From: a virus
DNA: 17,746 nucleotides
Strand: one strand, 5' to 3'
IMG/VR virus record: IMGVR_UViG_3300045988_020405
The translations under genes were made by a program, and so were the position numbers. The notes beneath the pieces were generated by a model. The model was given only the letters and a program-made list of their open reading frames with translations. It had not been told where the DNA came from and searched no databases. Below, piece by piece: positions 1-17,746 of the stretch (the stretch's first letter is position 1; each line of letters opens with the position of its first letter).

Positions 1-99
1 TTTTTTTGCTGTTTTTTTGTGTGTTGGGCGTGTTGTTTTTTTGGTGTGTTATTATATAAGTATCAACCAAGGATATAGAAAGGATGGTGGTTGAGATGA
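1..99. repeat. Left inverted terminal repeat (99 bp)
   Basis: Bases 1-99 are the exact reverse complement of 17648-17746, checked base by base. Identity breaks at 100/17647. The repeat begins with T7, and the unit TTTTTTTG occurs at 1-8, 12-19 and 36-43. Confidence 0.95.
33..60 (+). promoter_or_regulatory. Candidate sigma70-type early promoter inside the left ITR
   Basis: TTGTTT (33-38), 16-nt spacer, TATAAG (55-60). An alternative is an extended -10, TGtTATTAT (47-55). It lies upstream of the first ORF. Motif reading only. Confidence 0.35.
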
Positions 100-311
100 C
101 TGGTATTTCTGTTTGTTTTGAGACTGGTGAGTTGGACGGGAAGGAGGTTCTTATCTTGCGCTATCGTCTAAGGAGGTTTGTGATTGTAAGATTCTTCACT
201 GAAACGTATGACCCTTGTTCTGGTGAGGTTTGTTCGGCTATGGATAATATGGTGGGCTTTGTTTATCGCTTGATGAGGTTTGTTTCTGAGCATCCTGAGT
301 GCTCCTATTGA
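84..311 (+). CDS. Hypothetical early protein (75 aa; the alternative start ATG 96 gives 71 aa)
   Basis: First ORF after the ITR promoter. GAAAGG abuts ATG 84, and GGTGG sits 5 nt before ATG 96. I recognise no homology. The coding strand is very G+T-rich. Confidence 0.45.
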   Translation: MVVEMTGISVCFETGELDGKEVLILRYRLRRFVIVRFFTETYDPCSGEVCSAMDNMVGFVYRLMRFVSEHPECSY

Positions 312-332
312 AAAGAGTGAAGGTGATAGATA

Positions 333-584
333 ATGTGGTGTTTTACTGTTACGCCTGATGATTTTACGGTGTTCGAAGTCACGCCTGAGTATGTGCAGAA
401 GAGGGGCCCATATCCAGCCGGTACGTTCAAGGAGGCGTTGGATGGCGTTCTTGATGTTGTTCGCCATGCGTTTGCCGGGTTTGATGTGTGTGTTGGTTTT
501 GCTCGTTCTTCGTTTGCCCCAGAAACGGGGGTTTTGAATGGTGTCGTTGAGGTGAGCTTGTCGTTTGAGGGGGGTGTCTGGTGA
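333..584 (+). CDS. Hypothetical early protein (83 aa)
   Basis: SD GAAGGTGA lies about 7 nt upstream of the ATG. It is tightly packed with its neighbours, and its stop overlaps the next start (TGATG). Confidence 0.55.
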   Translation: MWCFTVTPDDFTVFEVTPEYVQKRGPYPAGTFKEALDGVLDVVRHAFAGFDVCVGFARSSFAPETGVLNGVVEVSLSFEGGVW

Positions 585-826
585 TGGCGAGAGATGAGGT
601 CGTGTCCGTGGTCCCGTCCAAGTTTGAGTTTGGGGATGTGTGTGTGGTGTATTGTCCTCATAATCGGACGTATGAACTGCGGTATGCGGTGCAGTCTCAG
701 GCTGGCGGCGGGCGTCGTTTGGTTTGGTCGGCTGTGGCGTTTGATGCGTGCGATTATGCGCAAGTGGCTCATATGTTGGTTGATGCGAGGGCGTTGGCTG
801 ATACGTTGTTGGTAGAGAGGTGTTGA
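581..826 (+). CDS. Hypothetical early protein (81 aa; start GTG 581 or ATG 584)
   Basis: Start/stop overlap with the upstream ORF. A GAGGGGGG tract lies upstream. No recognisable domains. Confidence 0.5.
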   Translation: MMARDEVVSVVPSKFEFGDVCVVYCPHNRTYELRYAVQSQAGGGRRLVWSAVAFDACDYAQVAHMLVDARALADTLLVERC

Positions 827-828
827 TT

Positions 829-1338
829 ATGAAGAGCATTGATGACCGTTCGAATTGGTTTGATGATGGTGTTTTGGATGATGACCGTGTGCGCCGTGTC
901 GTTCGTGGCCGTCGGCGTAATCTGCATTTGCGTGAGTACAATAAAGGTGAGGGTGATTGGGAGACGTTTTGCCGTACCGTGGCACTGCTCAAGGGCTTCT
1001 ACAAGCCCCAAGGTGGTCAGGTGGCGTTTGCCGACAGTATCGAACATGCGGCGAACATTTGTCTAAGCATCTCGCCAAGTTCGTCAATGTATGCCGCATT
1101 GGTACGAACGCAGGACATTGAAATGTTGTCCGGGCTTATTTACTGTCCGGCGATGGTGGCGTGGTGCGCTGTCTGTCATGTCAAGGGCGCGTCAAGCTAT
1201 GAGATGTGCCAGACGTGGGAGGGTGATGAGTTCGCTCAGACTATCATCAAAATCGCGTGTCTCTGTTTTGACAATCTGACTGATGAACGGTATACTGATG
1301 AAGATATTGCAAGAATGTCACGACAGCAGCAACAATGA
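829..1338 (+). CDS. Hypothetical early protein (169 aa) with a Cys cluster
   Basis: ATG 829 is preceded by AGAGAGG at 8-nt spacing, which I prefer to GTG 820 from the ORF track. Contains C-x6-C-x2-C-H-x9-C (YCPAMVAWCAVCHVKGASSYEMC). Confidence 0.6.
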   Translation: MKSIDDRSNWFDDGVLDDDRVRRVVRGRRRNLHLREYNKGEGDWETFCRTVALLKGFYKPQGGQVAFADSIEHAANICLSISPSSSMYAALVRTQDIEMLSGLIYCPAMVAWCAVCHVKGASSYEMCQTWEGDEFAQTIIKIACLCFDNLTDERYTDEDIARMSRQQQQ

Positions 1339-2135: not shown

Positions 2136-2197
2136 AATATTTGTCTATACCATATGATAGCATGGCAATGTCCCTATAGGGATGTTGCCGCCAAACT

Positions 2198-2238
2198 CAC
2201 CCCTCGCCGTTTTCCATCCTTGCGGCGAGGGGTGTTTT
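2198..2238 (+). terminator. Rho-independent terminator or attenuator
   Basis: Perfect 12-bp stem CACCCCTCGCCG (2198-2209) / CGGCGAGGGGTG (2223-2234) with a 13-nt loop, followed by TTTT (2235-2238). Confidence 0.6.
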
Positions 2239-2260
2239 ACACTCACGAGGAGAGAGGGCT

Positions 2261-3218: not shown

Positions 3219-4679
3219 ATGAAAGAGCGTCGAACGGCGGCAACAGACGGCGCAACACTCTTGACGGATGACGGCACGGAACCATTGACGGCGAACGCCG
3301 TCATCCGGCTTACCATGCTCGACCATCATACACGCGTATGGTGCGCCCACGGATGGCAGGATATCAAGCCCATAGCCGCCGAACTGTTGAAACGACTCCC
3401 CTTGCAATCGAATCCAGCCAAGGACGGCGTGTGGGGAACGTTCAACATTCGCGGCCACTTCTACAGTTTTCGCGTGCGCATGGGCGGCATCACCGTGGAT
3501 TTTCTGGACGTGCGCAATGTCACGCGAGACGATGGCCTGAATGTTTCACGTGAAACATTCGGAGGAACCACCGACTTGGAAACCACGTGGAACATCGCGC
3601 AGGAATGCGCCGCCCTGAACCTCAAGGGCACGACCATAGCATCAATGGCGGTGACCGACTACATTGATGGCGATTACGCCGGATTCAAACGCCATTTTCC
3701 GCCATTGGACAAAGAGGCTTATCATCGGATGCGCCCCGCCTACTATGGGGCGATAGTGTACAGCAAACCGGGTGAATACCGGGATTGCCGGAGTTGGGAT
3801 GTGAACAGTCTCTACCCAAGTATCATGCGCGATGCCCCCATGCCGGTAGATGCCCCCGTGTGGTATGACGGGAAGTATCGTTATGATGCTGATTATCCGC
3901 TGCATATCGACGTTATCGCGTTTGACGCGCGATTGAAAACGGGGAAAACGGCAACGCTCACCAATATCCTGCCAGTATGGGGGTATGAGGGCGAACGCTT
4001 GGACAGTACGCTCGGCGTCGTCACCATGCCCATCACGGATGTGGATTGGGAAACGCTCACGGAAAACTATGACATCCACGTGTGGGAACATGTCGGCGGC
4101 TGGAAGTTCCGCAAATCACACGGGTTATATTATACGTATGTGGACAAATGGTTTCACGTGAAACAAACCGCGACCGGAGAGCGCAGGCAGATGGCGAAAC
4201 TGTTACTGAACTCACTGGTGGGAAAATTCGGGGCCTCGCTCTACCGGCCCATGTTGCATCCGAAACCGTCAGTGGATGGTGGGGTGGATTTTACCGTGGA
4301 CAAACCCGAGTCGGCCAACAGTCTGGCATGGTTGCCGACCGCCGCATATGTCAACGCCTACGGGCGACAAATATTGTCCCGGGCGATGAATGCGAACGCC
4401 GACCGTGTACTTTACGCCGATACCGACGGCATGATATTGGAAGGGTTGGATGCGCCCTCAGGTATCGAAACAGATGACCGGAAACTAGGGGCGTGGAAAA
4501 ACGACCACACCTACGAGAAGCTCAGTATCCTAGGCAATCGTAAATACTGCGGTGTGGAAGCGGGTGGAGATACGGTAATGCGTTTGAGTGGTGTGCATCG
4601 TGCCGCCCCCATCCCCTATGATGAGTTCCTGCCGGGAGCGCGTCACCTCAATGATGATGGCCATAGTTTCGTGCTATAA
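3219..4679 (+). CDS. Protein-primed family-B DNA polymerase (phi29 gp2-like)
   Basis: SD AAAGGA. Motif A is DVNSLYPS (nt 3798-3821), motif B is KLLLNSLVGKFG, motif C is YADTDG, and the KxY motif is NRKY. There is long collinear similarity to remembered phi29 gp2, for example GKYRYDADYPLHIDVI vs GKYVWDEDYPLHIQHI. Confidence 0.95.
   Translation: MKERRTAATDGATLLTDDGTEPLTANAVIRLTMLDHHTRVWCAHGWQDIKPIAAELLKRLPLQSNPAKDGVWGTFNIRGHFYSFRVRMGGITVDFLDVRNVTRDDGLNVSRETFGGTTDLETTWNIAQECAALNLKGTTIASMAVTDYIDGDYAGFKRHFPPLDKEAYHRMRPAYYGAIVYSKPGEYRDCRSWDVNSLYPSIMRDAPMPVDAPVWYDGKYRYDADYPLHIDVIAFDARLKTGKTATLTNILPVWGYEGERLDSTLGVVTMPITDVDWETLTENYDIHVWEHVGGWKFRKSHGLYYTYVDKWFHVKQTATGERRQMAKLLLNSLVGKFGASLYRPMLHPKPSVDGGVDFTVDKPESANSLAWLPTAAYVNAYGRQILSRAMNANADRVLYADTDGMILEGLDAPSGIETDDRKLGAWKNDHTYEKLSILGNRKYCGVEAGGDTVMRLSGVHRAAPIPYDEFLPGARHLNDDGHSFVL
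3539..3560. repeat. 22-bp perfect palindrome containing GTTTCACGTGAAAC (copy 1, inside the polymerase ORF)
   Basis: GAATGTTTCAC|GTGAAACATTC, read directly. It encodes LNVSRETF. Confidence 0.95.
4151..4164. repeat. 14-bp perfect palindrome GTTTCACGTGAAAC (copy 2, inside the polymerase ORF)
   Basis: Read directly. It encodes WFHVKQ, a different codon phase from copy 1. Confidence 0.95.
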
Positions 4680-4680
4680 T
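4672..4680 (+). promoter_or_regulatory. Perfect extended -10 element TGcTATAAT
   Basis: TGCTATAAT overlaps the polymerase stop codon (TAA 4677-4679). It would start transcription near 4687, at the beginning of the structured intergenic region. Confidence 0.4.
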
Positions 4681-4686
4681 AACTAA

Positions 4687-4850
4687 CAGCGGGGTGTGCG
4701 TCCCAAGTCGATTCGACGGCCCGACCGTAAGGCAAGTCGGTAAGGCGATTCGGTCGGATGTAGACGTGCGTAGCCAGCGCCCAGCGACGGCGAGGGAACC
4801 CGCACAGCCTAGCAAACCGGCATGACGGCGTGATTGCCGTCATGCCACTT
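4687..4850 (+). ncRNA. Candidate structured RNA (pRNA-like packaging RNA, or the 5' leader of the late operon)
   Basis: The 181-nt GC-rich gap has no credible ORF. A long-range helix pairs 4692-4704 with 4794-4810. An internal helix pairs 4721-4727 with 4751-4757. A perfect 11-bp hairpin spans 4819-4846. The extended -10 lies just upstream. There is no sequence homology evidence. Confidence 0.2.
4819..4846 (+). terminator. Strong hairpin (possible terminator or processing site)
   Basis: GGCATGACGGC (4819-4829) / GCCGTCATGCC (4836-4846) with loop GTGATT. It is followed by ACTTACTTT, a poor U tract. Confidence 0.4.
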
Positions 4851-4866
4851 ACTTTAAGAGGTGATT

Positions 4867-5211
4867 ATGGACGACACCGAAAACGATGACAAGCCGGACA
4901 CCACACCCGACACCGAGCCGGACGCCAAGCCAACCGACGATAATACGCCGAACCCGGAGTCTGAAACGCAGGATGACGGCGAACCGGAGGACGCGGGCGA
5001 CGACAAGGACGCCGACATGGCCAACCGTCTCAGCGCTTTGGAAGCGACGGTGGCGGAACTCTCCAAAACCATTGAGGCGATGCGCGATGCCGCCGCAGAC
5101 CACGTACTGAACGATGGCCCGGATGGCGACACGACGCCGGAATCGGCTGAAATGACAGACGATGACTACAACGGCACTTACAGCACGTTCGATGATTTGT
5201 TTGAAGACTAA
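4867..5211 (+). CDS. Probable scaffolding protein (gp7 analogue)
   Basis: ATG 4867 is preceded by AGAGGTG at 5-nt spacing. The 114-aa protein is very acidic with a predicted helical segment (ANRLSALEATVAELSKTIEAMRDAAA). It lies directly upstream of the capsid gene. Positional inference. Confidence 0.55.
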   Translation: MDDTENDDKPDTTPDTEPDAKPTDDNTPNPESETQDDGEPEDAGDDKDADMANRLSALEATVAELSKTIEAMRDAAADHVLNDGPDGDTTPESAEMTDDDYNGTYSTFDDLFED

Positions 5212-6982: not shown

Positions 6983-7012
6983 AAGGGAGTGTTTCACGTG
7001 AAACACTCCCTT
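6983..7012 (+). terminator. 30-bp perfect palindrome (copy 3 of GTTTCACGTGAAAC); terminator-like hairpin after the capsid gene
   Basis: AAGGGAGTGTTTCAC|GTGAAACACTCCCTT begins 16 nt after the capsid stop and is followed by CTTTAT. Confidence 0.6.
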
Positions 7013-9295: not shown

Positions 9296-10252
9296 ATGTC
9301 TAGGTCGAGGAAAAATCAGAATCGTAGGGGCGGCGCGTTGCACCCGCGTGGCAATTACGCCAAGGCACGCGCCGCCAGCCTTGACGCAATGTATTATCAC
9401 CTGTTGACTGAACTGGCACTGAACCGGTTCAGTTGGCGGGGGCTACCGCCAACCGTGGATGAACGATGGCTGGAAATGTGTCTCTGCGAATACGGGTGCG
9501 CGCTCTTCTTCGAAGACAAACGCATAGGTCGGTTCCTCGCTACGCAAGCCGGTTATCAAGGCCGATTGAACGTGTATAACAACCCGACGTGCTTCGAGCC
9601 GGTGGGCGTCAACTACCATTACAAGCAACTCAAGGCGGGCCGTGAATGCATCCCGATTTGGGACAATCGTATGCGCATGAGTTTCAAAGATATCTTATGG
9701 CAGTATGCGAGACGCCTCGCCGACATTGACAAGGCATATGACGTGAACTTGGAGAGCCTGAAACTGCCAACCATCATCACCGCCGACCCGCGCACCAAGC
9801 TCACCGTACAGAACATGCTACAACAGCGGCAGGATGGGCAGGATTATATCATCGGATACGATTCACTCGACCCCGGTAGCATGTTCCAACCGTGGCCCAA
9901 CACCACCCCCTATCTGCTGGACAAGTTCATCCAGCAAAAAACGCAGGTGACCAACGAGGTGCTGGGCTATTTGGGCATCCAGTCCAGTGGTACCGAGAAA
10001 AAAGAGCGGCTCATTTCTGATGAGGTGGCGCAAGCCAACGAGAAGGTAGACGTGTTCCGATTGAGTTTTCTCAAGGCGCGACAGACTGCGGCAACCGAGA
10101 TTAACCGATTGTGGCCGCAACTTAACATCTGGGTAGAGTACGCGGACGCGCAAAGCTCCGGTGTGCCGAACGCGCTGGACTCCAGCGCAAGCGGCACGAC
10201 GGATATTGATATGCCCGCCTCGTATGACGCGGGTATCGGAGGTGTATTGTAA
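9296..10252 (+). CDS. Portal / upper collar connector (phi29 gp10-like)
   Basis: FSWRGLPPTVDERWLE aligns with remembered gp10 FEWENLPPTINPSFLE, and LGIQSSGTEKKERLISDEV aligns with LGIKNANLEKKERMVTDEV. It is 318 aa vs 309 aa. The N-terminus is Arg/Lys-rich. Confidence 0.93.
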   Translation: MSRSRKNQNRRGGALHPRGNYAKARAASLDAMYYHLLTELALNRFSWRGLPPTVDERWLEMCLCEYGCALFFEDKRIGRFLATQAGYQGRLNVYNNPTCFEPVGVNYHYKQLKAGRECIPIWDNRMRMSFKDILWQYARRLADIDKAYDVNLESLKLPTIITADPRTKLTVQNMLQQRQDGQDYIIGYDSLDPGSMFQPWPNTTPYLLDKFIQQKTQVTNEVLGYLGIQSSGTEKKERLISDEVAQANEKVDVFRLSFLKARQTAATEINRLWPQLNIWVEYADAQSSGVPNALDSSASGTTDIDMPASYDAGIGGVL

Positions 10253-13268: not shown

Positions 13269-13293
13269 TACCAACCTAACACCCCGCAGCCTC

Positions 13294-13339
13294 ATGTTTC
13301 ACGTGAAACATACCCCGTCCGGTACTCCGGGCGGGGTAT
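13294..13339 (+). terminator. Tandem hairpins after the fibre gene (copy 4 of the palindrome plus a GC-rich stem-loop)
   Basis: An 18-bp palindrome, ATGTTTCAC|GTGAAACAT, spans 13294-13311. It is followed by a stem 13310-13322 / 13327-13339 (13 pairs, one G-U) with loop TACT. Confidence 0.55.
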
Positions 13340-13348
13340 ACTAATACT

Positions 13349-14563
13349 ATGGTAGACGTACAAGCATGGTTGGAACGCACCCAAAACCAATACTGGGATA
13401 TGGACGGGGCTTACGGCGCTCAATGCTGGGACTTGTGGGCGAAATACTGCATGGACAATTACAATCTAAGTCTTGGTGATTGCATCACGCCCACAGGTTA
13501 CGCGGAGGGCAATTACACCATGTTCCCCACCACGGCGGCGGTTGGACGTGTTTTTGAGAAAAAGGACGCCGACTATACGCCCGGCATGGGGGATGTCGTG
13601 TTTTGGAGGTTCGGCAGTCAAAACTACCCCGGCAGTCACGTGGCCATCGTGTGGGGTGGCGTCCGAGGGGATAATATCGACGTGTTGACGCAAAACCCGA
13701 CGCCCGCCGTGCATCAATTGTTGCCGCTCGCGAAAGGTTCACAACTGCTTGGCTATCTGCATCCCACTGCATTGCCGGAACCGCCGGAATCTGGCGATAA
13801 TCCGACAGGCGGTAATAATCCGGGTGTGAACGTGGACGGCGATATCTCCGCGTGGATACAATTACAGGGCGATAACCTCGTATGTCACAGTGGTTCGGGC
13901 ACGACGTCATCGCAATCCGTTTTCTATAAGGCGAGCGCCCAGACTTGGATATATCGTGGCGGCACGGGTCAGCCGGACGCCGACCAAGGTCAGGGGACGC
14001 CAAGCGTAGGCGACGGGAAAAGCTCATACGCGCTCTATGTCATCGGCACTGTCGAGTCATCATTACGCTGGGATGCCGTCGAACCTAACAATCAGGGTAT
14101 CGGCATCGCACAATGGTCGTTTGGTAGACGCTTGCAGGTGTTGAACGCTATGAAAGCGGTTGACGCCGAGGGGTATAAGTCGTTTGCCGCTGCCGCGCCA
14201 AACATCGCCACGCTTATGGAATCAGGCGGCGCGTTCGATAGGGCGATGACCGGTAGCGAGGTCGCCGCATTCCAGACGTGGGCGCGGCGCACGGAATCAC
14301 GACAGGGTCAGCGTAATCAGTTCGCAAAGGATTACGAGGGCTACCCGCAGATGTATGATGATGTGAAAATGCAGATACTGTGGGTGAGCGCCTATCATCA
14401 AAGCCCGGCGGGCGCGTTGAATGTGCCTCATGCTTCATCTCTTACCCAACTGTATAATAATATCCTTAATACGCCTCCGTTCGGGCCATACGGGACGCGC
14501 TACAACACCGTCTACTCGCTGTTGAACGTGTGGGACGGCACCAGTGCGCCGCCGAACTTCTGA
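13349..14563 (+). CDS. Tail-associated peptidoglycan hydrolase: N-terminal CHAP peptidase + C-terminal gp13-type lysozyme-like domain
   Basis: The CHAP signature has its Cys in GAQCWDLW and its His in PGSHVAIVW. The C-terminal part, GTVESSLRWDAVEPNNQGIGIAQWS, resembles the phi29 gp13 N-domain pattern QSES...G.G..QW. It occupies the gene-13 position. Confidence 0.85.
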   Translation: MVDVQAWLERTQNQYWDMDGAYGAQCWDLWAKYCMDNYNLSLGDCITPTGYAEGNYTMFPTTAAVGRVFEKKDADYTPGMGDVVFWRFGSQNYPGSHVAIVWGGVRGDNIDVLTQNPTPAVHQLLPLAKGSQLLGYLHPTALPEPPESGDNPTGGNNPGVNVDGDISAWIQLQGDNLVCHSGSGTTSSQSVFYKASAQTWIYRGGTGQPDADQGQGTPSVGDGKSSYALYVIGTVESSLRWDAVEPNNQGIGIAQWSFGRRLQVLNAMKAVDAEGYKSFAAAAPNIATLMESGGAFDRAMTGSEVAAFQTWARRTESRQGQRNQFAKDYEGYPQMYDDVKMQILWVSAYHQSPAGALNVPHASSLTQLYNNILNTPPFGPYGTRYNTVYSLLNVWDGTSAPPNF

Positions 14564-14564
14564 C

Positions 14565-14604
14565 ACAGTGACAAACCGGTAGATATATACCGGTTTGTCA
14601 CTGT
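14565..14604 (+). terminator. 17-bp perfect hairpin immediately after the hydrolase stop codon
   Basis: ACAGTGACAAACCGGTA (14565-14581), loop GATATA, TACCGGTTTGTCACTGT (14588-14604). All 17 pairs were checked. The U tract is weak. Confidence 0.55.
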
Positions 14605-14615
14605 TGTATGGTAGT

Positions 14616-15722
14616 ATGGATACTATGGAGAGGCTGTTAGCTGAGGGCGATTATTACGATTATGGGAGCGTATTATCCTATCACGCGCCTTGGATGTTCG
14701 TAATCGGCGCACGCGGCCTCGGAAAAACCTACGGAGCCAAAAAACTGGTCATAGGCGACTGGATAAAAAAACGCTGGCAATTCATCTATCTAAGACGTAC
14801 CGCCGAAGAACAGAAAAACAAGGGCACGTGGTTCGCAGACATCGCGGAACAATACCCGAAATTAGAGTTCCGCATATCCGGCAATCAAGCAGAATGTCAC
14901 TGGCTGGATGACAGGGACGCCACCACGGACAAACACGGCAAGACACGCCCAACATGGCACATCATGGGGTACTTCATCGCCCTCAGTCAAGCAGGACAGG
15001 TGAAATCGGTGGCCTATCCCAAGGTGCGAACCATTGTTTTTGATGAGATTTTCCCCGATAATATGCGGTATTTGGGCGGTGAAGTAACCGCGCTTGAGGA
15101 GTTCTATAATACGGTTGACCGTTGGAATGATAGGGTTCGCGTCATCATGTGCAGTAACGCGGTGACGTTGGCCAACCCGTATTTCAGCGCGTTCAACATC
15201 AATCTTAAACCGCAACTGGACAATCGCACGCAATACCAGCGCTATTGCAACGGGTTTATCATGGTGGAACTGGCTGACTACGGAGGGTTCAGCGCCAAGG
15301 TGGCCACCTCGAAATTCGGGCAGTTTTTACGCGAATATGACGAAAATTATGCGAATTATGCAATCAATAATGATTTCAGGGATAACGCCAATACTCTCAT
15401 CAGTGATTTCAATAACGCCGGTTATGCGTTCACATTAAGAACCACCGAATACGGTATTTTCAACGTGTATCAACAATTGAGTGACACCGATGAAGTATTA
15501 TATGTCATCACCAAGAAACAGCCGAAAATCACTAGGGATTTTACGTTTGACTACCGCCTAGTTGACAATGATTGCATCATGCTCAAACGTTCCGATGACA
15601 TGACACAGAAAATACTGAACGCCTATCGCGTCGGACGATTGCGTTTTGAAACACCGCAAATCAAAGCAGAATTCAGTATGATTCTTGGCGGCTTGTTGCA
15701 ACAATCAGGCATAAGAAAGTGA
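14616..15722 (+). CDS. DNA encapsidation ATPase (phi29 gp16-like)
   Basis: Walker A is GARGLGKTY and Walker B is RTIVFDEIF. FVIGARGLGKTY aligns with remembered gp16 FVIGARGIGKSY, and RVIMCSNAVTLANPYF aligns with RCICLSNAVSVVNPYF. The start is uncertain, either ATG 14616 or ATG 14625. The track's TTG 14595 lies inside the hairpin. Confidence 0.92.
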   Translation: MDTMERLLAEGDYYDYGSVLSYHAPWMFVIGARGLGKTYGAKKLVIGDWIKKRWQFIYLRRTAEEQKNKGTWFADIAEQYPKLEFRISGNQAECHWLDDRDATTDKHGKTRPTWHIMGYFIALSQAGQVKSVAYPKVRTIVFDEIFPDNMRYLGGEVTALEEFYNTVDRWNDRVRVIMCSNAVTLANPYFSAFNINLKPQLDNRTQYQRYCNGFIMVELADYGGFSAKVATSKFGQFLREYDENYANYAINNDFRDNANTLISDFNNAGYAFTLRTTEYGIFNVYQQLSDTDEVLYVITKKQPKITRDFTFDYRLVDNDCIMLKRSDDMTQKILNAYRVGRLRFETPQIKAEFSMILGGLLQQSGIRK

Positions 15723-16097: not shown

Positions 16098-17148
16098 GGC
16101 AATCGCCTATAGTATAATCGCCGCAATCGCCACACTGCTACTGGTATTCGCTCCAACCGCAAGCGCGGCGGACATGATAGACGTATCCAGTTGGCAAACC
16201 GGAATCAACGTCACCACGTCCGGCGCGCAAATCGTTGTCACCAAAGCCACCGAGGGCGTCGGATACGTCAACCCTGATTGTGACCGCGTAGTACAGGACG
16301 CCTTGAAGGCCGGGCAGGGCGTCGGCGTCTACCACTTCGCGCACACGGAAAACAGCGCCATCAGTGAGGCCAACTACTTTATCGACAACACACGCGGATA
16401 CATCGGCAAAGGCATCGTGCCCATTCTCGACTGGGAGCCAAACGCCCCGTGGGATACCGGTTGGGCGCTCACATGGCTCCAGACCGTGGAAGCCGCATGG
16501 GGCACCAAGCCGATTATCTACACAAATCAGTACACCGAAAATAGTTACGACTGGTCGGCGGTTGTCGCCGGAAATTATGGTCTATGGATTGCCGCGTATA
16601 CGCTAGGCTATACGCCAATATACGGGTTTAATCCGCCCTCAACCCAGCCCACACTCCGCTACTGGCCGTTTGCCGTAGCATGGCAATACACTAGCACCGG
16701 CTATGTCAACGGCTGGGGCGGAGGAGTTGACCTAAGCGTAGTTTACGGCGACCTCAACACGTGGCACGCATACGCGGGCAGCGAGCAGGTCGCACCCCAG
16801 CCCACACCGCAACCCACGCCACAGCCAGCACCACAGCCCAGCACGCCGAACACTCCATGTGACACCAATTGCGTTATCATCCAAAGCGGCCAGTATGTTT
16901 CAATGTTCTGGCCCGACTGGTGGAACGTCAGCGTACCCAGCGGCAACCCGTCAATCGTATACCCCGGCGACAAGGTATGTCACAACAGCGGCGGCAACAC
17001 CGCAACAGTATCGCGCACATACGTGGTACAGGCAGGCGACACACTATCAGGCATCGCCGCATGGCTCGGGGTCAGCATGTACAACATCACCGGGTACAGC
17101 TCAGGTAACATGAACCTCATCTACCCCGGAGAAGTACTCTACTACTAA
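16081..17148 (+). CDS. Endolysin: signal peptide + GH25 muramidase + Pro-rich linker + LysM repeats
   Basis: SD GAAAGGA. The N-terminus MARKIKAIAYSIIAAIATLLLVFAPTASA|AD looks like a Sec signal with an AXA site. GH25 motifs are DVSSWQ, ATEG, YHF and ILDWE. The linker is PQPTPQPTPQPAPQPSTP. The C-terminal LysM is YVVQAGDTLSGIAAWLGVSMYNI...IYPGEVL, preceded by a degenerate copy. Confidence 0.9.
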   Translation: MARKIKAIAYSIIAAIATLLLVFAPTASAADMIDVSSWQTGINVTTSGAQIVVTKATEGVGYVNPDCDRVVQDALKAGQGVGVYHFAHTENSAISEANYFIDNTRGYIGKGIVPILDWEPNAPWDTGWALTWLQTVEAAWGTKPIIYTNQYTENSYDWSAVVAGNYGLWIAAYTLGYTPIYGFNPPSTQPTLRYWPFAVAWQYTSTGYVNGWGGGVDLSVVYGDLNTWHAYAGSEQVAPQPTPQPTPQPAPQPSTPNTPCDTNCVIIQSGQYVSMFWPDWWNVSVPSGNPSIVYPGDKVCHNSGGNTATVSRTYVVQAGDTLSGIAAWLGVSMYNITGYSSGNMNLIYPGEVLYY

Positions 17149-17160
17149 CCTCCCAGCATG

Positions 17161-17190
17161 AATAAGCCCCCGCAGATTGCGGGGCTTATT
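17161..17190. terminator. Bidirectional terminator between convergent genes
   Basis: AATAAGCCCC (17161-17170) pairs with GGGGCTTATT (17181-17190), with three further inner pairs and one bulge. TTTGTT follows on +. It lies between the endolysin stop and the stop of the minus-strand ORF. Confidence 0.65.
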
Positions 17191-17199
17191 TGTTATCAG

Positions 17200-17442
17200 T
17201 CACCATACATCATCAATTGAAACAACATAGCAACCAACGCCATTTTTAACGCCACAACATACGAAATCAAAATCACAATCACCATAATCATGTTCAAGAA
17301 CCCTAGTAAGAGCTGATTTAAACGTGACCACGCCATTATCAATCTCCTTACAAGCAGTAACGATTTTCTCAAAACCGTCAACATCAACCGAATACACATG
17401 ACCCGGTGCAATCTCAGTCACATAGGCATTAACTTTAAACAT
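17200..17442 (-). CDS. Hypothetical right-end early protein (80 aa)
   Basis: The minus-strand ATG at 17442 is preceded by AAGGGAAAGGGAG at 5-nt spacing, which I prefer to the GTG at 17469. Cys-rich (DCDFDFVCCGVKNGVGC). No homology recognised. Confidence 0.5.
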   Translation of the reverse strand: MFKVNAYVTEIAPGHVYSVDVDGFEKIVTACKEIDNGVVTFKSALTRVLEHDYGDCDFDFVCCGVKNGVGCYVVSIDDVW

Positions 17443-17465
17443 CTTAACTCCCTTTCCCTTACTGC

Positions 17466-17663
17466 TCACTCAACTACACGATTCAAAAAAACCACAGGCT
17501 CAAAATAATAACGATAAAACTCGACCCCCTCACGCTCATACATAACAACAAGACAATCAACAATAGCCTCAACATCATAATCCACAACACGCTCACCACT
17601 GTTGCGAATATAATCAACAACCTCATTCTCAATGTCTTGACGATACATCATCTCAACCACCAT
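17466..17663 (-). CDS. Hypothetical right-end early protein (65 aa; alternative start at 17651)
   Basis: Its first five codons (MVVEM) lie inside the ITR and are identical to those of the left-end ORF 84-311. The rest is unrelated. Its stop overlaps the alternative GTG of the next ORF. Confidence 0.45.
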   Translation of the reverse strand: MVVEMMYRQDIENEVVDYIRNSGERVVDYDVEAIVDCLVVMYEREGVEFYRYYFEPVVFLNRVVE

Positions 17664-17746
17664 CCTTTCTATATCCTTGGTTGATACTTATATAATAACA
17701 CACCAAAAAAACAACACGCCCAACACACAAAAAAACAGCAAAAAAA
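17648..17746. repeat. Right inverted terminal repeat (99 bp)
   Basis: Exact reverse complement of 1-99. The window ends in A7, which is T7 at the 5' end of the minus strand. Confidence 0.95.
17687..17714 (-). promoter_or_regulatory. Mirror copy of the ITR promoter, firing leftward into the right-end genes
   Basis: Identical sequence by ITR symmetry, located upstream of the minus-strand ORF 17466-17663. Confidence 0.35.

What the first reader, a model, noticed from the sequence alone, without database searches (positions are those of the whole stretch)
4672..4860. Structured 181-nt intergenic region that may be a pRNA-like packaging RNA or late-promoter control region
This is the largest non-coding gap in the genome, and it lies between the polymerase and the structural module. 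Several features point to a discrete RNA.
(i) A perfect extended -10, TGCTATAAT (4672-4680), overlaps the polymerase stop and predicts a start near 4687.
(ii) A 13-pair closing helix joins 4692-4704 with 4794-4810. It is interrupted by a 1-nt bulge and a 3-nt (ACC) bulge.
(iii) An inner helix CCGACCG/CGGTCGG pairs 4721-4727 with 4751-4757. An alternative partner, GTCGG, lies at 4736-4740.
(iv) There are short duplicated words: GTAAGGC (4727, 4740), CGATTCG (4709, 4746) and CGACGGC (4714, 4785).
(v) A perfect 11-bp hairpin spans 4819-4846.
The implied RNA is about 160-170 nt, and phi29 pRNA is 174 nt. This phage has a gp16-like ATPase and a portal with an Arg/Lys-rich N-terminus (MSRSRKNQNRRGG...). 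In phi29 these are the two partners of pRNA. pRNAs are known only from the Bacillus phi29 group, and there they are encoded at the left end. Alternatively, this region is the late promoter with its regulator-binding repeats and leader.
Basis: partly seen in the sequence, partly recalled or inferred. Interest (0 to 1): 0.65.

Follow-up and report, generated by a model that had tools for sequence, protein, structure and literature searches.

The report
pRNA-like structured RNA in Bifidobacterium phage
Between the polymerase and head genes of this small phi29-like Bifidobacterium phage lies a conserved gene for a ~165-nt folded RNA whose shape closely copies the phi29 packaging RNA, a molecule so far known only from Bacillus phages; no experiment has yet tested what it does.

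Summary
The window is a complete 17.7-kb phi29-like genome with 99-nt terminal repeats, and its nearest isolates infect Bifidobacterium. The 4680-4866 gap is more conserved than the flanking genes in 80 relatives.

All 12 pol-defined lineages examined (pol identity down to 34%) share one layout:
- an extended -10 promoter (GTGnTATAAT/TATGAT) overlapping the polymerase stop;
- a 120-140-nt core closed by pairing of its 5' and 3' ends;
- a short linker and a strong terminal hairpin.

The hairpin loop is GUGAUU in most lineages. In 69 sequences, 25 different stems carry GUGAUU (67) or GCGAUU (2).

Covariation supports a three-way junction. Helix order, bulge side and loop sizes match phi29 pRNA domain I plus domain II. 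The arm-1 bulge and arm-2 loop stay complementary while their sequences change between lineages (permutation p about 0.001 to 0.02).

One clade adds a U-tract terminator and a second promoter, which makes the RNA a separate gene there. Full-length gp16-type ATPase, gp10-type connector and phi29-type capsid genes are present.

Against membership: Rfam's pRNA model does not match, the gene is not at the left end, and in this phage the RNA is also the leader of the late operon.

Best reading: a packaging-RNA analogue (about 0.5). Rivals are a cis-acting leader or another trans-acting RNA.

The parts
4672..4680 (+). Extended -10 promoter TGCTATAAT overlapping the polymerase stop codon (TAA 4677-4679)
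   Evidence: GTG[C/A/T]TAT[A/G]AT sits at the identical offset from the pol stop in all 12 lineages examined, pol identity down to 34%. The amino acids encoded there differ (VL*, VI*) while the -10 is kept. No good -35 is present.
4688..4853 (+). Predicted RNA of about 165 nt, from an inferred start at 4686-4689 to the U-rich tail after the terminal hairpin
   Evidence: Conservation begins abruptly at 4688, after the variable stretch 4681-4687. P1 begins 5-10 nt after the -10 in most lineages. Both ends are inferred, not mapped.
4689..4704 (+). P1 5' strand (counterpart of the pRNA A helix)
   Evidence: Pairs with 4794-4813. Alifold consensus on 69 sequences; 100% of cells paired; U4695:A4806 becomes C:G in L168.
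4707..4719 (+). P1b 5' strand, the inner extension of the closing helix that closes the three-way junction
   Evidence: 4707-4710 pairs with 4788-4791, and 4713-4719 with 4781-4787. Pair 4715:4785 is G-C in 50 sequences, A-U in 8 and G-U in 8. The window itself has A4716/G4784 unpaired and a C4717/A4783 mismatch (67 of 69 sequences have U-A at that pair).
4721..4757 (+). Arm P2. Helix 4721-4727:4751-4757; 5' bulge 4728-4735 (UAAGGCAA); inner helix 4736-4739:4746-4749; apical loop 4740-4745 (GUAAGG). Counterpart of pRNA C helix, CE bulge, E helix and E loop.
   Evidence: The same helix / 6-9-nt 5' bulge / 3-5-bp helix / 5-7-nt loop layout is seen in most other lineages (L174 has a 24-nt bulge; L260 is unresolved). 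GGC at 4731-4733 is invariant in 69 sequences.
4758..4767 (+). Single-stranded junction J2/3 (AUGUAGACGU)
   Evidence: Unpaired in the consensus and nearly invariant in clade 1.
4768..4780 (+). Arm P3: hairpin 4768-4771:4777-4780 with loop AGCCA (4772-4776). Counterpart of the pRNA D helix and D loop. It abuts the P1b 3' strand with no spacer.
   Evidence: Pair 4771:4777 is U-A in 39 sequences, U-G in 17 and C-G in 13. GCC at 4773-4775 is invariant and complementary to bulge GGC 4731-4733.
4781..4813 (+). 3' strands of P1b (4781-4791) and P1 (4794-4813), including the ACC bulge at 4798-4800
4814..4818 (+). Single-stranded linker (AAACC) between the core and the terminal hairpin
   Evidence: phi29 pRNA has a 13-nt linker at the same place.
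4819..4846 (+). Terminal hairpin with an 11-bp stem and loop GUGAUU (4830-4835). Counterpart of pRNA domain II; a possible partial terminator or 3'-end protecting hairpin.
   Evidence: Compensatory changes within clade 1. 25 distinct stems carry GUGAUU (67) or GCGAUU (2) in 69 sequences. Scored terminator-like with tail ACTTACTTTA. Clade 2 has a full U-tract.
4855..4869 (+). RBS AAGAGG and ATG 4867 of the acidic 114-aa ORF (putative scaffold protein), the first late gene. This is context, not part of the RNA core.
   Evidence: No second promoter was seen by reading the sequence between the hairpin and this RBS, unlike clade 2.
9296..10252 (+). gp10-type connector (portal) with a basic N-terminus; inferred RNA-binding partner
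   Evidence: PF05352 at 6.8e-44; PHROG upper collar connector. The partnership is inferred by analogy with phi29.
14595..15722 (+). gp16-type packaging ATPase, full length including the C-terminal domain; inferred partner
   Evidence: PF05894 at 3.1e-42 covering profile positions 6-319 of 331. Matches phi29 gp16 chain 7jqq_A over residues 6-318 of 332, E = 7.7e-31.

Best explanation
The gap encodes a structured RNA of about 165 nt.

Shown:
- The RNA lies downstream of a conserved extended -10 motif that overlaps the polymerase stop codon. Transcription from this motif is inferred, not measured.
- It folds into a long helix formed by its 5' and 3' ends (P1/P1b).
- That helix closes a three-way junction with two arms. 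Arm P2 is helix, 7-8-nt 5' bulge, 4-bp helix, 6-nt loop. Arm P3 is a short hairpin with a 5-nt loop.
- A 5-nt linker and a stable terminal hairpin follow.

Inferred:
- This RNA is the counterpart of the phi29 prohead/packaging RNA in phi29-like phages of Bifidobacterium.
- Copies would join head to tail, with the P2 bulge (GGC) pairing to the P3 loop (GCC) of a neighbour.
- The resulting ring would sit on the basic N-termini of the gp10-type connector of the prohead, and its protruding P1 helices would dock the gp16-type ATPase for packaging of the protein-primed genome.
- The terminal hairpin would end or protect the RNA, as domain II does in phi29.
- In this phage the same transcript reads on into the scaffold and capsid genes, so the RNA would have to be released by partial termination or by processing after the hairpin.
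For: Real, conserved RNA element:
- The core is more conserved than the flanking genes in 80 relatives.
- Covariation supports the fold in clade 1: 99.6% of cells paired, 4 pairs with double changes.
- Covariation is stronger in clade 2: 95.1% paired, 16 pairs with double changes, 0 of 500 shuffles reach the observed value, and slid controls give 32-47% paired.
- G-U pairs and the higher stability of the plus strand indicate plus-strand RNA.

A gene in its own right:
- The promoter sits at the same offset in all 12 lineages.
- In clade 2 a U-tract terminator follows the RNA, and then a second promoter: TGATATAAT in 74 and TGGTATAAT in 5 of 81 sequences.

pRNA-like anatomy:
- Rfam's pRNA structure runs A helix, 1 nt, C helix, 9-nt 5' bulge, 4-bp E helix, 6-nt loop UUGAGU, direct return, 3-nt junction, 6-bp D helix, 5-nt loop, then 0 nt to the A helix 3' strand.
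- The window's RNA has the same order, the same bulge side, a 0-nt P3/P1 junction and similar element sizes.
- Full-length phi29 pRNA is also core, linker, terminal hairpin.
- Tree-edit distance to the pRNA structure is 38 for the window and 42-44 for clade 2. Folds of shuffled sequences give about 100 +/- 18, and none of 300-400 comes as close.
- P2 apical loops in five lineages (six sequences) fit UUGNNU or UUANNU, like the phi29 E loop UUGAGU.

- The residues at the 3' end of the P2 bulge are complementary to the P3 loop in each lineage, with different sequences: GGC:GCC, UGGC:GCCA, (G/A)CCA:UGG(C/U), GACUA:UAGUC, GUCG:UGAC, ACC:GGU.
- Cognate pairs beat non-cognate pairs: p = 0.001 to 0.0002 with annotated loops, and p about 0.02 with the whole downstream region.
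- Within clade 2, an A in the bulge occurs only together with a U in the loop.
- Known pRNAs pair through GG/CC plus 0-2 A/U pairs (PMC12670572).

Partners are present:
- Full-length gp16-type ATPase, gp10-type connector and phi29-type capsid protein.
Against: - No match to Rfam RF00044 at E <= 10, even when only 261 nt were searched.
- The gene lies between the polymerase and scaffold genes, not at the left end under an early promoter as in phi29.
- In this phage and most lineages the hairpin has only a weak U-tract and no second promoter follows (read from the sequences). The RNA is therefore also the 5' leader of the late mRNA, and its release is hypothetical.
- In the window's own clade the bulge/loop complementarity is only three invariant G-C pairs, which gives no covariation information.
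- In 9 of 75 distinct clade-2 sequences the fourth pair is mismatched.
- Bulge-loop pairing could equally be an intramolecular tertiary contact.
- Structures of the single-sequence lineages were annotated by hand from minimum-energy folds, and L260 could not be resolved.
- The core alone is not unusually stable (z = -1.4).
- The tree-distance null would be beaten by any RNA with a closing helix and two hairpins.
- There are no expression or binding data.
Confidence: 0.5

Rival explanations
1. Cis-acting 5' leader of the late operon. The promoter at 4672 is the late promoter, and the structured RNA stays attached to the scaffold/capsid mRNA. It would act in cis in one of three ways: protecting the 5' end from nucleases, acting as a put-like RNA that makes RNA polymerase read through downstream terminators, or setting how much transcription passes the hairpin.
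For: - In the window and in all lineages outside clade 2, the hairpin is followed within 15-35 nt by the RBS of the first late gene, with no second promoter.
- The position directly upstream of the scaffold and capsid genes is invariant.
- Strong hairpins that could need read-through lie further downstream at 13269-13348 and 14565-14604.
- A promoter / RNA / terminator order is also what HK022 put sites show (own knowledge).
Against: - In clade 2 the RNA ends at a canonical U-tract terminator and the late genes have their own extended -10 promoter. Even so, the RNA keeps its fold with 16 covarying pairs and its invariant hairpin loop. That argues for a job independent of the downstream mRNA.
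- The hairpin does not sequester the RBS; it ends 8 nt upstream of it.
- A leader model gives no obvious reason for bulge and loop to co-evolve, or for the topology to match pRNA.
Confidence: 0.25
2. A trans-acting small RNA unrelated to packaging. Examples are a decoy or sponge for a host protein (nuclease, defence sensor or RNA chaperone), or a regulator of host or phage mRNAs. On this reading the three-way junction and the internal bulge-loop contact are simply its tertiary fold.
For: - It is an independent transcription unit in clade 2.
- The hairpin loop GUGAUU is nearly invariant on 25 different stems, which suggests sequence-specific recognition of an unknown partner.
- Sequence turns over rapidly between lineages while the fold is kept, as expected for an RNA that co-evolves with a protein partner.
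- The bulge-loop pairing may be intramolecular.
Against: - No target or partner can be named, and nothing in Rfam matches.
- The element-by-element agreement with pRNA, in a phage that carries the pRNA-dependent type of motor, would then be coincidence.
Confidence: 0.17
3. A DNA-level control region: a late promoter whose repeated words (GTAAGGC, CGATTCG, CGACGGC) are binding sites for a phage regulator. Alternatively, a small protein gene on the minus strand (ORF 4643-4843).
For: - The repeated 7-mers exist.
- A 66-codon minus-strand ORF spans the region.
Against: - The repeats map onto helix strands and loops.
- Substitutions preserve RNA pairing, including G-U pairs that would be A-C mismatches on the other strand.
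- The words are not conserved in other lineages, although the fold is.
- About 30 of 69 close relatives carry a 1-nt deletion at 4735, and others carry 2-3-nt insertions at 4770/4771. These would frameshift any ORF.
- Nearly uniform conservation with no visible codon periodicity (judged by eye).
Confidence: 0.03

Closest known systems
phi29 prohead/packaging RNA (pRNA; Rfam RF00044 'Phage_pRNA'), known from Bacillus phages of the phi29, GA1 and DLc1 groups
   Same: - The host virus is of the same type, with a protein-primed polymerase, gp10 connector, gp16 ATPase and phi29-type capsid protein.
- A 120-140-nt core is closed by pairing of the 5' and 3' ends.
- The three-way junction has the same 5'-to-3' order: A helix, then C helix / 5' bulge / short E helix / 6-7-nt loop, then D hairpin.
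- There is no spacer between the D hairpin and the A helix 3' strand (0-1 nt in the lineages with clean folds).
- The bulge residues next to the E helix are complementary to the D loop through a G/C-rich core, and this complementarity changes together between lineages.
- Several lineages have an E-loop-like UUGRRU.
- A linker and a terminal hairpin follow, like domain II.
- Primary sequence diverges fast while the fold is kept.
   Different: - Rfam's covariance model gives no detectable match.
- The gene is internal (pol/scaffold junction), not at the left end.
- It is on the same strand as the late genes and, in most lineages, co-transcribed with them.
- J2/3 is longer here (10 nt against 3) and the D-type hairpin shorter (4 bp against 6).
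- The 3-nt bulge of the closing helix is on the 3' strand (ACC), whereas the CCA bulge of phi29 is on the 5' strand.
- The host phylum is Actinomycetota, not Bacillota.
- Prohead binding and a role in packaging are untested.
HK022 put RNAs (cis-acting, polymerase-modifying antiterminator RNAs)
   Same: A structured RNA encoded immediately downstream of a phage promoter and upstream of terminators and late or delayed genes, with no protein product (own knowledge).
   Different: - put RNAs are about 70 nt and form two stem-loops, not a three-way junction closed by a helix of about 20 bp or more.
- No sequence or model match.
- Clade 2 gives the late genes their own promoter after the RNA's terminator, which a cis-only antiterminator would not need.
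Three-way-junction riboswitch aptamers with loop-loop contacts (for example the purine riboswitch) followed by a terminator
   Same: A closing helix P1, two arms that touch through complementary loops, then a hairpin upstream of the regulated gene (own knowledge).
   Different: - Riboswitch cores keep their ligand-contacting nucleotides over large distances. Here junction and loop sequences change almost completely between lineages.
- No alternative antiterminator pairing was seen by eye.
- The hairpin lacks a U-tract in most lineages, and in clade 2 it is uncoupled from the downstream genes.

Membership tests
phi29-type pRNA (Rfam RF00044) | Encoded by a phi29-like phage that has a gp10-type connector and a gp16-type packaging ATPase | tested here: met
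   PF05352 at 6.8e-44 and PF05894 at 3.1e-42. The ATPase aligns with phi29 gp16 chain 7jqq_A over residues 6-318 of 332. PHROG hits to polymerase, capsid, connector and ATPase. 99-nt terminal repeats.
phi29-type pRNA (Rfam RF00044) | A domain I of about 117-120 nt closed by a long, bulged helix made from the 5' and 3' ends (A helix) | tested here: met
   P1/P1b 4689-4719 with 4781-4813; 21 of 24 pairs in the alifold consensus, 99-100% of cells paired. All 12 lineages examined show a closing helix, starting 5-10 nt after the -10 in most.
phi29-type pRNA (Rfam RF00044) | Three-way junction with the order A helix / C helix - 5' bulge - E helix - E loop / D helix - D loop | tested here: met
   Element-by-element comparison of the covariation-supported consensus with Rfam's structure line. 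Tree-edit distance 38-44 against about 100 +/- 18 for shuffles.
phi29-type pRNA (Rfam RF00044) | Complementary right-hand (CE bulge) and left-hand (D loop) sequences that covary | tested here: met
   Across lineages, cognate bulge/loop pairs are more complementary than non-cognate ones: p = 0.001 to 0.0002 and p about 0.02 in the conservative version. Clade 2 shows G-C, G-U and A-U but never A-C at the variable pair. Caveats: in the window's own clade the three G-C pairs never vary, some loops were annotated by hand, and inter- versus intramolecular pairing cannot be told apart.
phi29-type pRNA (Rfam RF00044) | Scores with the family's covariance model | tested here: not met
   No RF00044 match at E <= 10 in the whole window or in 4640-4900 alone. 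The same model scores 145 bits on phi29.
phi29-type pRNA (Rfam RF00044) | 3' domain II: a single-stranded linker followed by a terminal stem-loop | tested here: met
   Linker 4814-4818 and hairpin 4819-4846. phi29 has a 13-nt linker, a hairpin and UUUU. The stem covaries while the loop stays fixed.
phi29-type pRNA (Rfam RF00044) | Gene at the left genome end, transcribed from the early promoter A1 | tested here: not met
   Here the gene lies at 4.7 kb, between the polymerase and the scaffold gene and on the late-gene strand. phi29 pRNA is at 147-320 on the minus strand next to promoter A1.
phi29-type pRNA (Rfam RF00044) | Binds the prohead connector as a multimeric ring, is required for DNA packaging, and is absent from mature virions | not testable with these tools
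   Needs RNA extraction from proheads, cryo-EM and in vitro packaging.
Riboswitch or ligand-sensing leader | Junction and core nucleotides conserved across distant lineages | tested here: not met
   A covariance model of clade 2 does not find the window or the other lineages tested. Junction sequences differ between lineages.
Intrinsic (rho-independent) terminator | G+C-rich hairpin followed directly by a U-tract | tested here: inconclusive
   The window hairpin is followed by ACUUACUUUA, which just passes the scan's threshold of 5 T in 8 bases. Clade 2 has UUUUAUUU. Other lineages lack a U-run.

The most novel reading that the evidence does not exclude
pRNA is not a peculiarity of Bacillus phages. 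It would be an ancestral, fast-evolving part of the phi29-type packaging motor, and this element would be the first pRNA found outside Bacillus, in phi29-like phages of Bifidobacterium (Actinomycetota). It differs from the Bacillus form in being encoded at the polymerase/scaffold junction. In most lineages it would be made as the 5' part of the late transcript and released at a hairpin with a conserved GUGAUU loop.
Probability: 0.45. Interest if true: 0.88.

Novelty: new variant of a known kind. Interest (0 to 1): 0.74.

Why it matters
A 2024 review of phi29-like phages calls the pRNA-dependent motor, on current knowledge, a feature unique to phi29 and related Bacillus phages (PMC11476376). 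A 2025 structure-based search seeded with phi29, GA1 and DLc1 pRNAs reported 12 new pRNAs related to those seeds (PMC12670572).

How gp16-type ATPases dock on the portal in the many other phi29-like phages is therefore open, as is whether pRNA is ancient or a late invention. This element makes both questions testable, because cultured phage-host pairs exist (BD811P1-3 on B. dentium, BP1 on B. pseudocatenulatum).

If confirmed, it would:
- extend pRNA to another bacterial phylum;
- give a recipe for finding pRNAs in the remaining phi29-like groups (promoter at the polymerase stop, three-way junction, co-varying bulge and loop);
- add new self-assembling three-way-junction scaffolds for RNA nanotechnology.

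Even if it is not a packaging RNA, it is an undescribed, strongly constrained phage RNA family that is common in human gut viromes.

Tried and rejected
1. Rfam search of the whole window and of the gap alone at E <= 10 found no relevant family.
2. A covariance model built from 76 clade-2 RNAs (R1) did not find the window's RNA or the other lineages, with default filters or with filters off. The model is too sequence-specific (effective sequence number 1.09). Homology between lineages therefore rests on position, promoter, fold and the hairpin loop, not on a model score.
3. I tried to build a cross-lineage, structure-driven model to test on phi29 by giving MAFFT N-padded, pre-aligned sequences. 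MAFFT shifted the clades against each other in two padding schemes, so I abandoned it.
4. Searches for more members of the intermediate lineages in IMG/VR returned almost nothing new.
5. Thermodynamic significance: the core alone is not exceptional (z = -1.4), so I rely on comparative evidence. A script of my own for dinucleotide shuffles timed out.
6. The single-sequence minimum-energy fold of the window misfolds 4707-4720 and 4758-4791. The alignment-based consensus replaces it.
7. A coding reading (minus-strand ORF 4643-4843; tiny plus-strand ORFs) was rejected because of frameshifting indels in relatives.
8. I looked by eye for a partner for the GUGAUU loop inside the RNA. AUCAC occurs in J2/3-P3 of many clade-2 members but not in BD811P2 or the window, so the idea was dropped.
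9. More distant phi29-like phages: Eggerthella LE1-1 has no gap after its polymerase. Microbacterium Evcara has a shorter hairpin-containing gap before its scaffold-like gene that is not clearly related. I did not pursue these.


Full report
**Context.** The window is a complete linear genome of 17,746 bp with perfect 99-nt inverted terminal repeats. It encodes a phi29-type gene set:
- an SSB, a putative terminal protein and a family-B polymerase (3219-4679);
- an acidic 114-aa ORF, which is probably the scaffold protein, and a phi29-type capsid protein;
- a tail protein, a gp10-type connector and a lower collar protein;
- a gp16-type ATPase, a holin and lysins.

The ATPase aligns with phi29 gp16 over almost its whole length, including the C-terminal domain (7jqq_A, E = 7.7e-31). 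No close relative exists among deposited phages. The nearest isolates, at 34-36% polymerase identity, are Bifidobacterium phages BD811P1-3, BP1 and BadAztec/BadAargau. One close homologue of the polymerase is labelled as coming from a B. breve MAG.

**Checking the observation.**
- TGCTATAAT at 4672-4680 overlaps the TAA stop at 4677-4679.
- The closing helix carries a 1-nt interruption and the ACC bulge.
- The CCGACCG/CGGTCGG helix is present.
- The three duplicated 7-mers are present.
- The 11-bp hairpin at 4819-4846 is present.

The gap folds at -77.2 kcal/mol with z = -3.88. The core without the hairpin has z = -1.4, so stability alone does not prove the core. The likely start of the next gene is ATG 4867, behind AAGAGG.

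**Conservation.** IMG/VR holds at least 114 contigs with a polymerase related to the query, and the 80 loci kept are 88-96% identical. In them the gap is 85-98% identical to the window. Positions 4711-4830 are more conserved (0.90-0.98) than the flanking coding sequence, which gives about 0.76-0.93 per 30-nt bin. Conservation starts sharply at 4688, just where a transcript from the -10 would begin, after the variable stretch 4681-4687. About 30 of 69 relatives carry a 1-nt deletion at 4735, and some carry 2-3-nt insertions at 4770/4771. This rules out a protein-coding reading.

**The same unit in every related lineage.** I sampled progressively more distant polymerases:
- 76% (L168);
- 54-55% (L170, L258, L259);
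- 47% (L260);
- 40-44% (L172, L261, L262);
- 38% (L174, L256, L257);
- 36% (BD811P2, BP1 and 80 IMG/VR contigs);
- 34% (BadAargau2).

Every one has a gap of 170-230 nt between the polymerase and a small acidic ORF that precedes the capsid gene. In all of them GTG[C/A/T]TAT[A/G]AT sits at the same offset over the polymerase stop. The encoded residues differ (VL*, VI*; TAA or TGA stop) while the -10 is kept, so the constraint is on the promoter.

In all of them the RNA forms a long closing helix, starting 5-10 nt after the -10 in most lineages, with a region about 120-140 nt downstream. A short linker and a strong hairpin follow. The hairpin loop is GUGAUU in most lineages. Among 69 sequences, 25 different stems carry GUGAUU (67) or GCGAUU (2).

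Only the BD811P2/BP1 clade adds a U-tract such as UUUUAUUU. About a dozen nucleotides later it has a second extended -10: TGATATAAT in 74 and TGGTATAAT in 5 of 81 sequences. In that clade the RNA is a stand-alone gene.

**Structure.**

Clade 1 is the window's clade (69 distinct sequences, alignment A3). The alifold consensus is:
- P1: 4689-4704 with 4794-4813;
- P1b: 4707-4710 with 4788-4791, and 4713-4719 with 4781-4787;
- P2: 4721-4727 with 4751-4757, a 5' bulge at 4728-4735, an inner helix 4736-4739 with 4746-4749, and loop GUAAGG;
- a 10-nt junction;
- P3: 4768-4771 with 4777-4780, loop AGCCA, abutting P1b directly.

Here 99.6% of cells are paired and four pairs carry compensatory changes, among them 4715:4785 and 4771:4777. 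Slid controls give 23-41% paired.

Clade 2 (76 sequences, 75 distinct; alignment A2) has the same architecture with quite different sequence. It shows 95.1% pairing and 16 pairs with double changes. None of 500 shuffles reaches the observed values, and slid controls give 32-47%.

**Comparison with pRNA.** Rfam's RF00044 alignment of phi29 gives this order: A helix with a 3-nt bulge, 1 nt, C helix, 9-nt 5' bulge GAUUAAACC, 4-bp E helix, loop UUGAGU, direct return, UUU, 6-bp D helix, loop UGGUU, then 0 nt to the A helix 3' strand. The full 174-nt RNA adds a 13-nt linker and a terminal hairpin with UUUU.

The Bifidobacterium-phage RNAs have the same order, the same side for the bulge, a short inner helix of 3-5 bp, a 5-7-nt apical loop, at most 2 nt of 3' bulge, a 0-1-nt P3/P1 junction in the cleanly folding lineages, and the same linker-plus-hairpin tail.

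Tree-edit distance to the pRNA structure is 38 for the window consensus and 42-44 for clade 2. The plain minimum-energy fold of BD811P2 scores 28. Folds of shuffled sequences give about 100 +/- 18, and none of 300-400 comes as close as the consensus structures. This null is lenient towards any RNA that has a closing helix and two hairpins.

P2 apical loops are UUGAAU, UUGGGU, UUAGGU, UUGACU and UUAAGU in five lineages (six sequences), close to the conserved phi29 E loop UUGAGU. The window's clade has GUAAGG and clade 2 has UGAGAAU.

**Bulge-loop complementarity.** In phi29 the last residues of the CE bulge (AACC) pair with the D loop (GGUU) of a neighbouring molecule. Here the 3' end of the P2 bulge is complementary to the P3 loop in each lineage, but with different sequences:

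| Lineage | Bulge : loop |
|---|---|
| window, L168, L172 | GGC:GCC |
| L259 | UGGC:GCCA |
| clade 2 | (G/A)CCA:UGG(C/U) |
| L170 | GACUA:UAGUC |
| L258 | GACUG:UGGUC |
| L262 | GUCG:UGAC |
| L174, BadAargau2 | ACC:GGU |
| L261 | weak |

- Assigning loops to the wrong lineages gives a lower total score: p = 0.001 for contiguous pairing and p = 0.0002 for duplex energy over 10 lineages.
- A version that avoids my loop annotation uses the whole region between P2 and P1 as target. It gives p about 0.02.
- Within clade 2 the variable pair is G-C in 63, G-U in 8 and A-U in 4 sequences, and never A-C. The fourth pair is mismatched in 9 of 75 distinct sequences.
- In the window's clade the three G-C pairs never vary.
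- Known pRNAs pair through GG/CC plus 0-2 A/U pairs (PMC12670572).
- Whether the pairing is between molecules or within one molecule cannot be decided by computation.

**What argues against filing it as a pRNA.**
- RF00044 does not match.
- My clade-2 model does not even connect the lineages to one another.
- The gene is internal rather than at the left end.
- In the window there is no promoter between the hairpin and the late genes, and the U-tract is weak (ACUUACUUUA). The RNA must therefore also be the leader of the late mRNA, and its release is an inference.

I therefore describe it as working like a pRNA and rate membership as plausible but unproven.

**Rivals.**
- A cis-acting leader (mRNA protection or put-like antitermination) fits the invariant position upstream of the late genes. 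It fits poorly with clade 2, where the RNA is uncoupled from those genes yet equally constrained.
- A different trans-acting RNA cannot be excluded. The conserved GUGAUU loop points to an unknown sequence-specific partner.
- DNA-level operator repeats and a minus-strand ORF are contradicted by RNA-specific covariation and by indels.

**Literature.** The held library has no description of this element. Papers that mention these phages do not report an RNA gene. Current reviews state that pRNA is confined to Bacillus phages.

**Verdict.** This is a real, strongly constrained and previously undescribed phage RNA family. It is most likely the packaging-RNA counterpart of Bifidobacterium phi29-like phages (about 0.5). 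Cultured phage-host pairs make the idea directly testable.

Noticed in passing
window 3539-3560, 6985-7008, 13295-13315: A palindrome with core TGTTTCACGTGAAACA occurs three times: once inside the polymerase gene, once over the start of the tail gene (GTG 6989), and once in the 80-nt gap upstream of gene 13349 (pairs I4 and I6). It could be an operator for a phage regulator or a recurring RNA hairpin.
   Followed up: no
window 14565-14604: A 20+20-nt palindrome, 95% complementary with no spacer, lies between the gene ending at 14563 and the ATPase gene start at 14595 and overlaps that start (pair I7). It also produced spurious miRNA-like Rfam hits.
   Followed up: no
window 4830-4835 and the equivalent loops in L081-L174: The terminal hairpin loop GUGAUU (rarely GCGAUU, GUUAUU or AUUAUU) stays fixed while 25 different stems covary. 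From my own knowledge of the 16S rRNA 3' end, GUGAU(U) is complementary to the GAUCAC just upstream of the anti-Shine-Dalgarno sequence. This link is speculative. The loop's partner is unknown.
   Followed up: partly
window 13290-13456: This is the only stretch with a megablast match to any deposited phage: 88% identity to MT836241, a clade-2-type human faecal phage. It covers the palindrome, a terminator-like hairpin and the start of gene 13349, which suggests recent exchange of this module between otherwise diverged lineages.
   Followed up: no
window 2136-2260: The second-largest internal gap holds two very strong hairpins (z = -5.15). The second is followed by UUUUA, a canonical terminator after the SSB gene. 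The phage therefore does use U-tract terminators, which makes the weak tail after the 4819-4846 hairpin more notable.
   Followed up: partly
window 1346, 3107, 4672, 5759 (+) and 9843 (-): TGNTATAAT occurs five times against 0.49 expected. Two sites lie inside genes (3107 in the putative terminal-protein gene, upstream of pol; 5759 in the capsid gene). They may be internal promoters.
   Followed up: no
window 1-1000 and 17000-17746: Strong mirrored strand composition reaches well beyond the 99-nt terminal repeat: GC skew +0.4 and AT skew -0.35 at the left, GC skew -0.32 at the right. The right end has only minus-strand ORFs (17196-17663), which suggests inward-pointing early genes at both ends.
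   Followed up: no
L167 (Microbacterium phage Evcara) 3879-4052; L166 (Eggerthella phage LE1-1) 232-420: More distant phi29-like phages have other non-coding gaps with promoter-like and hairpin elements. Evcara has one just upstream of its scaffold-like gene, and LE1-1 has one near the left end and none after its polymerase. Whether these hold analogous RNAs was not examined.
   Followed up: no
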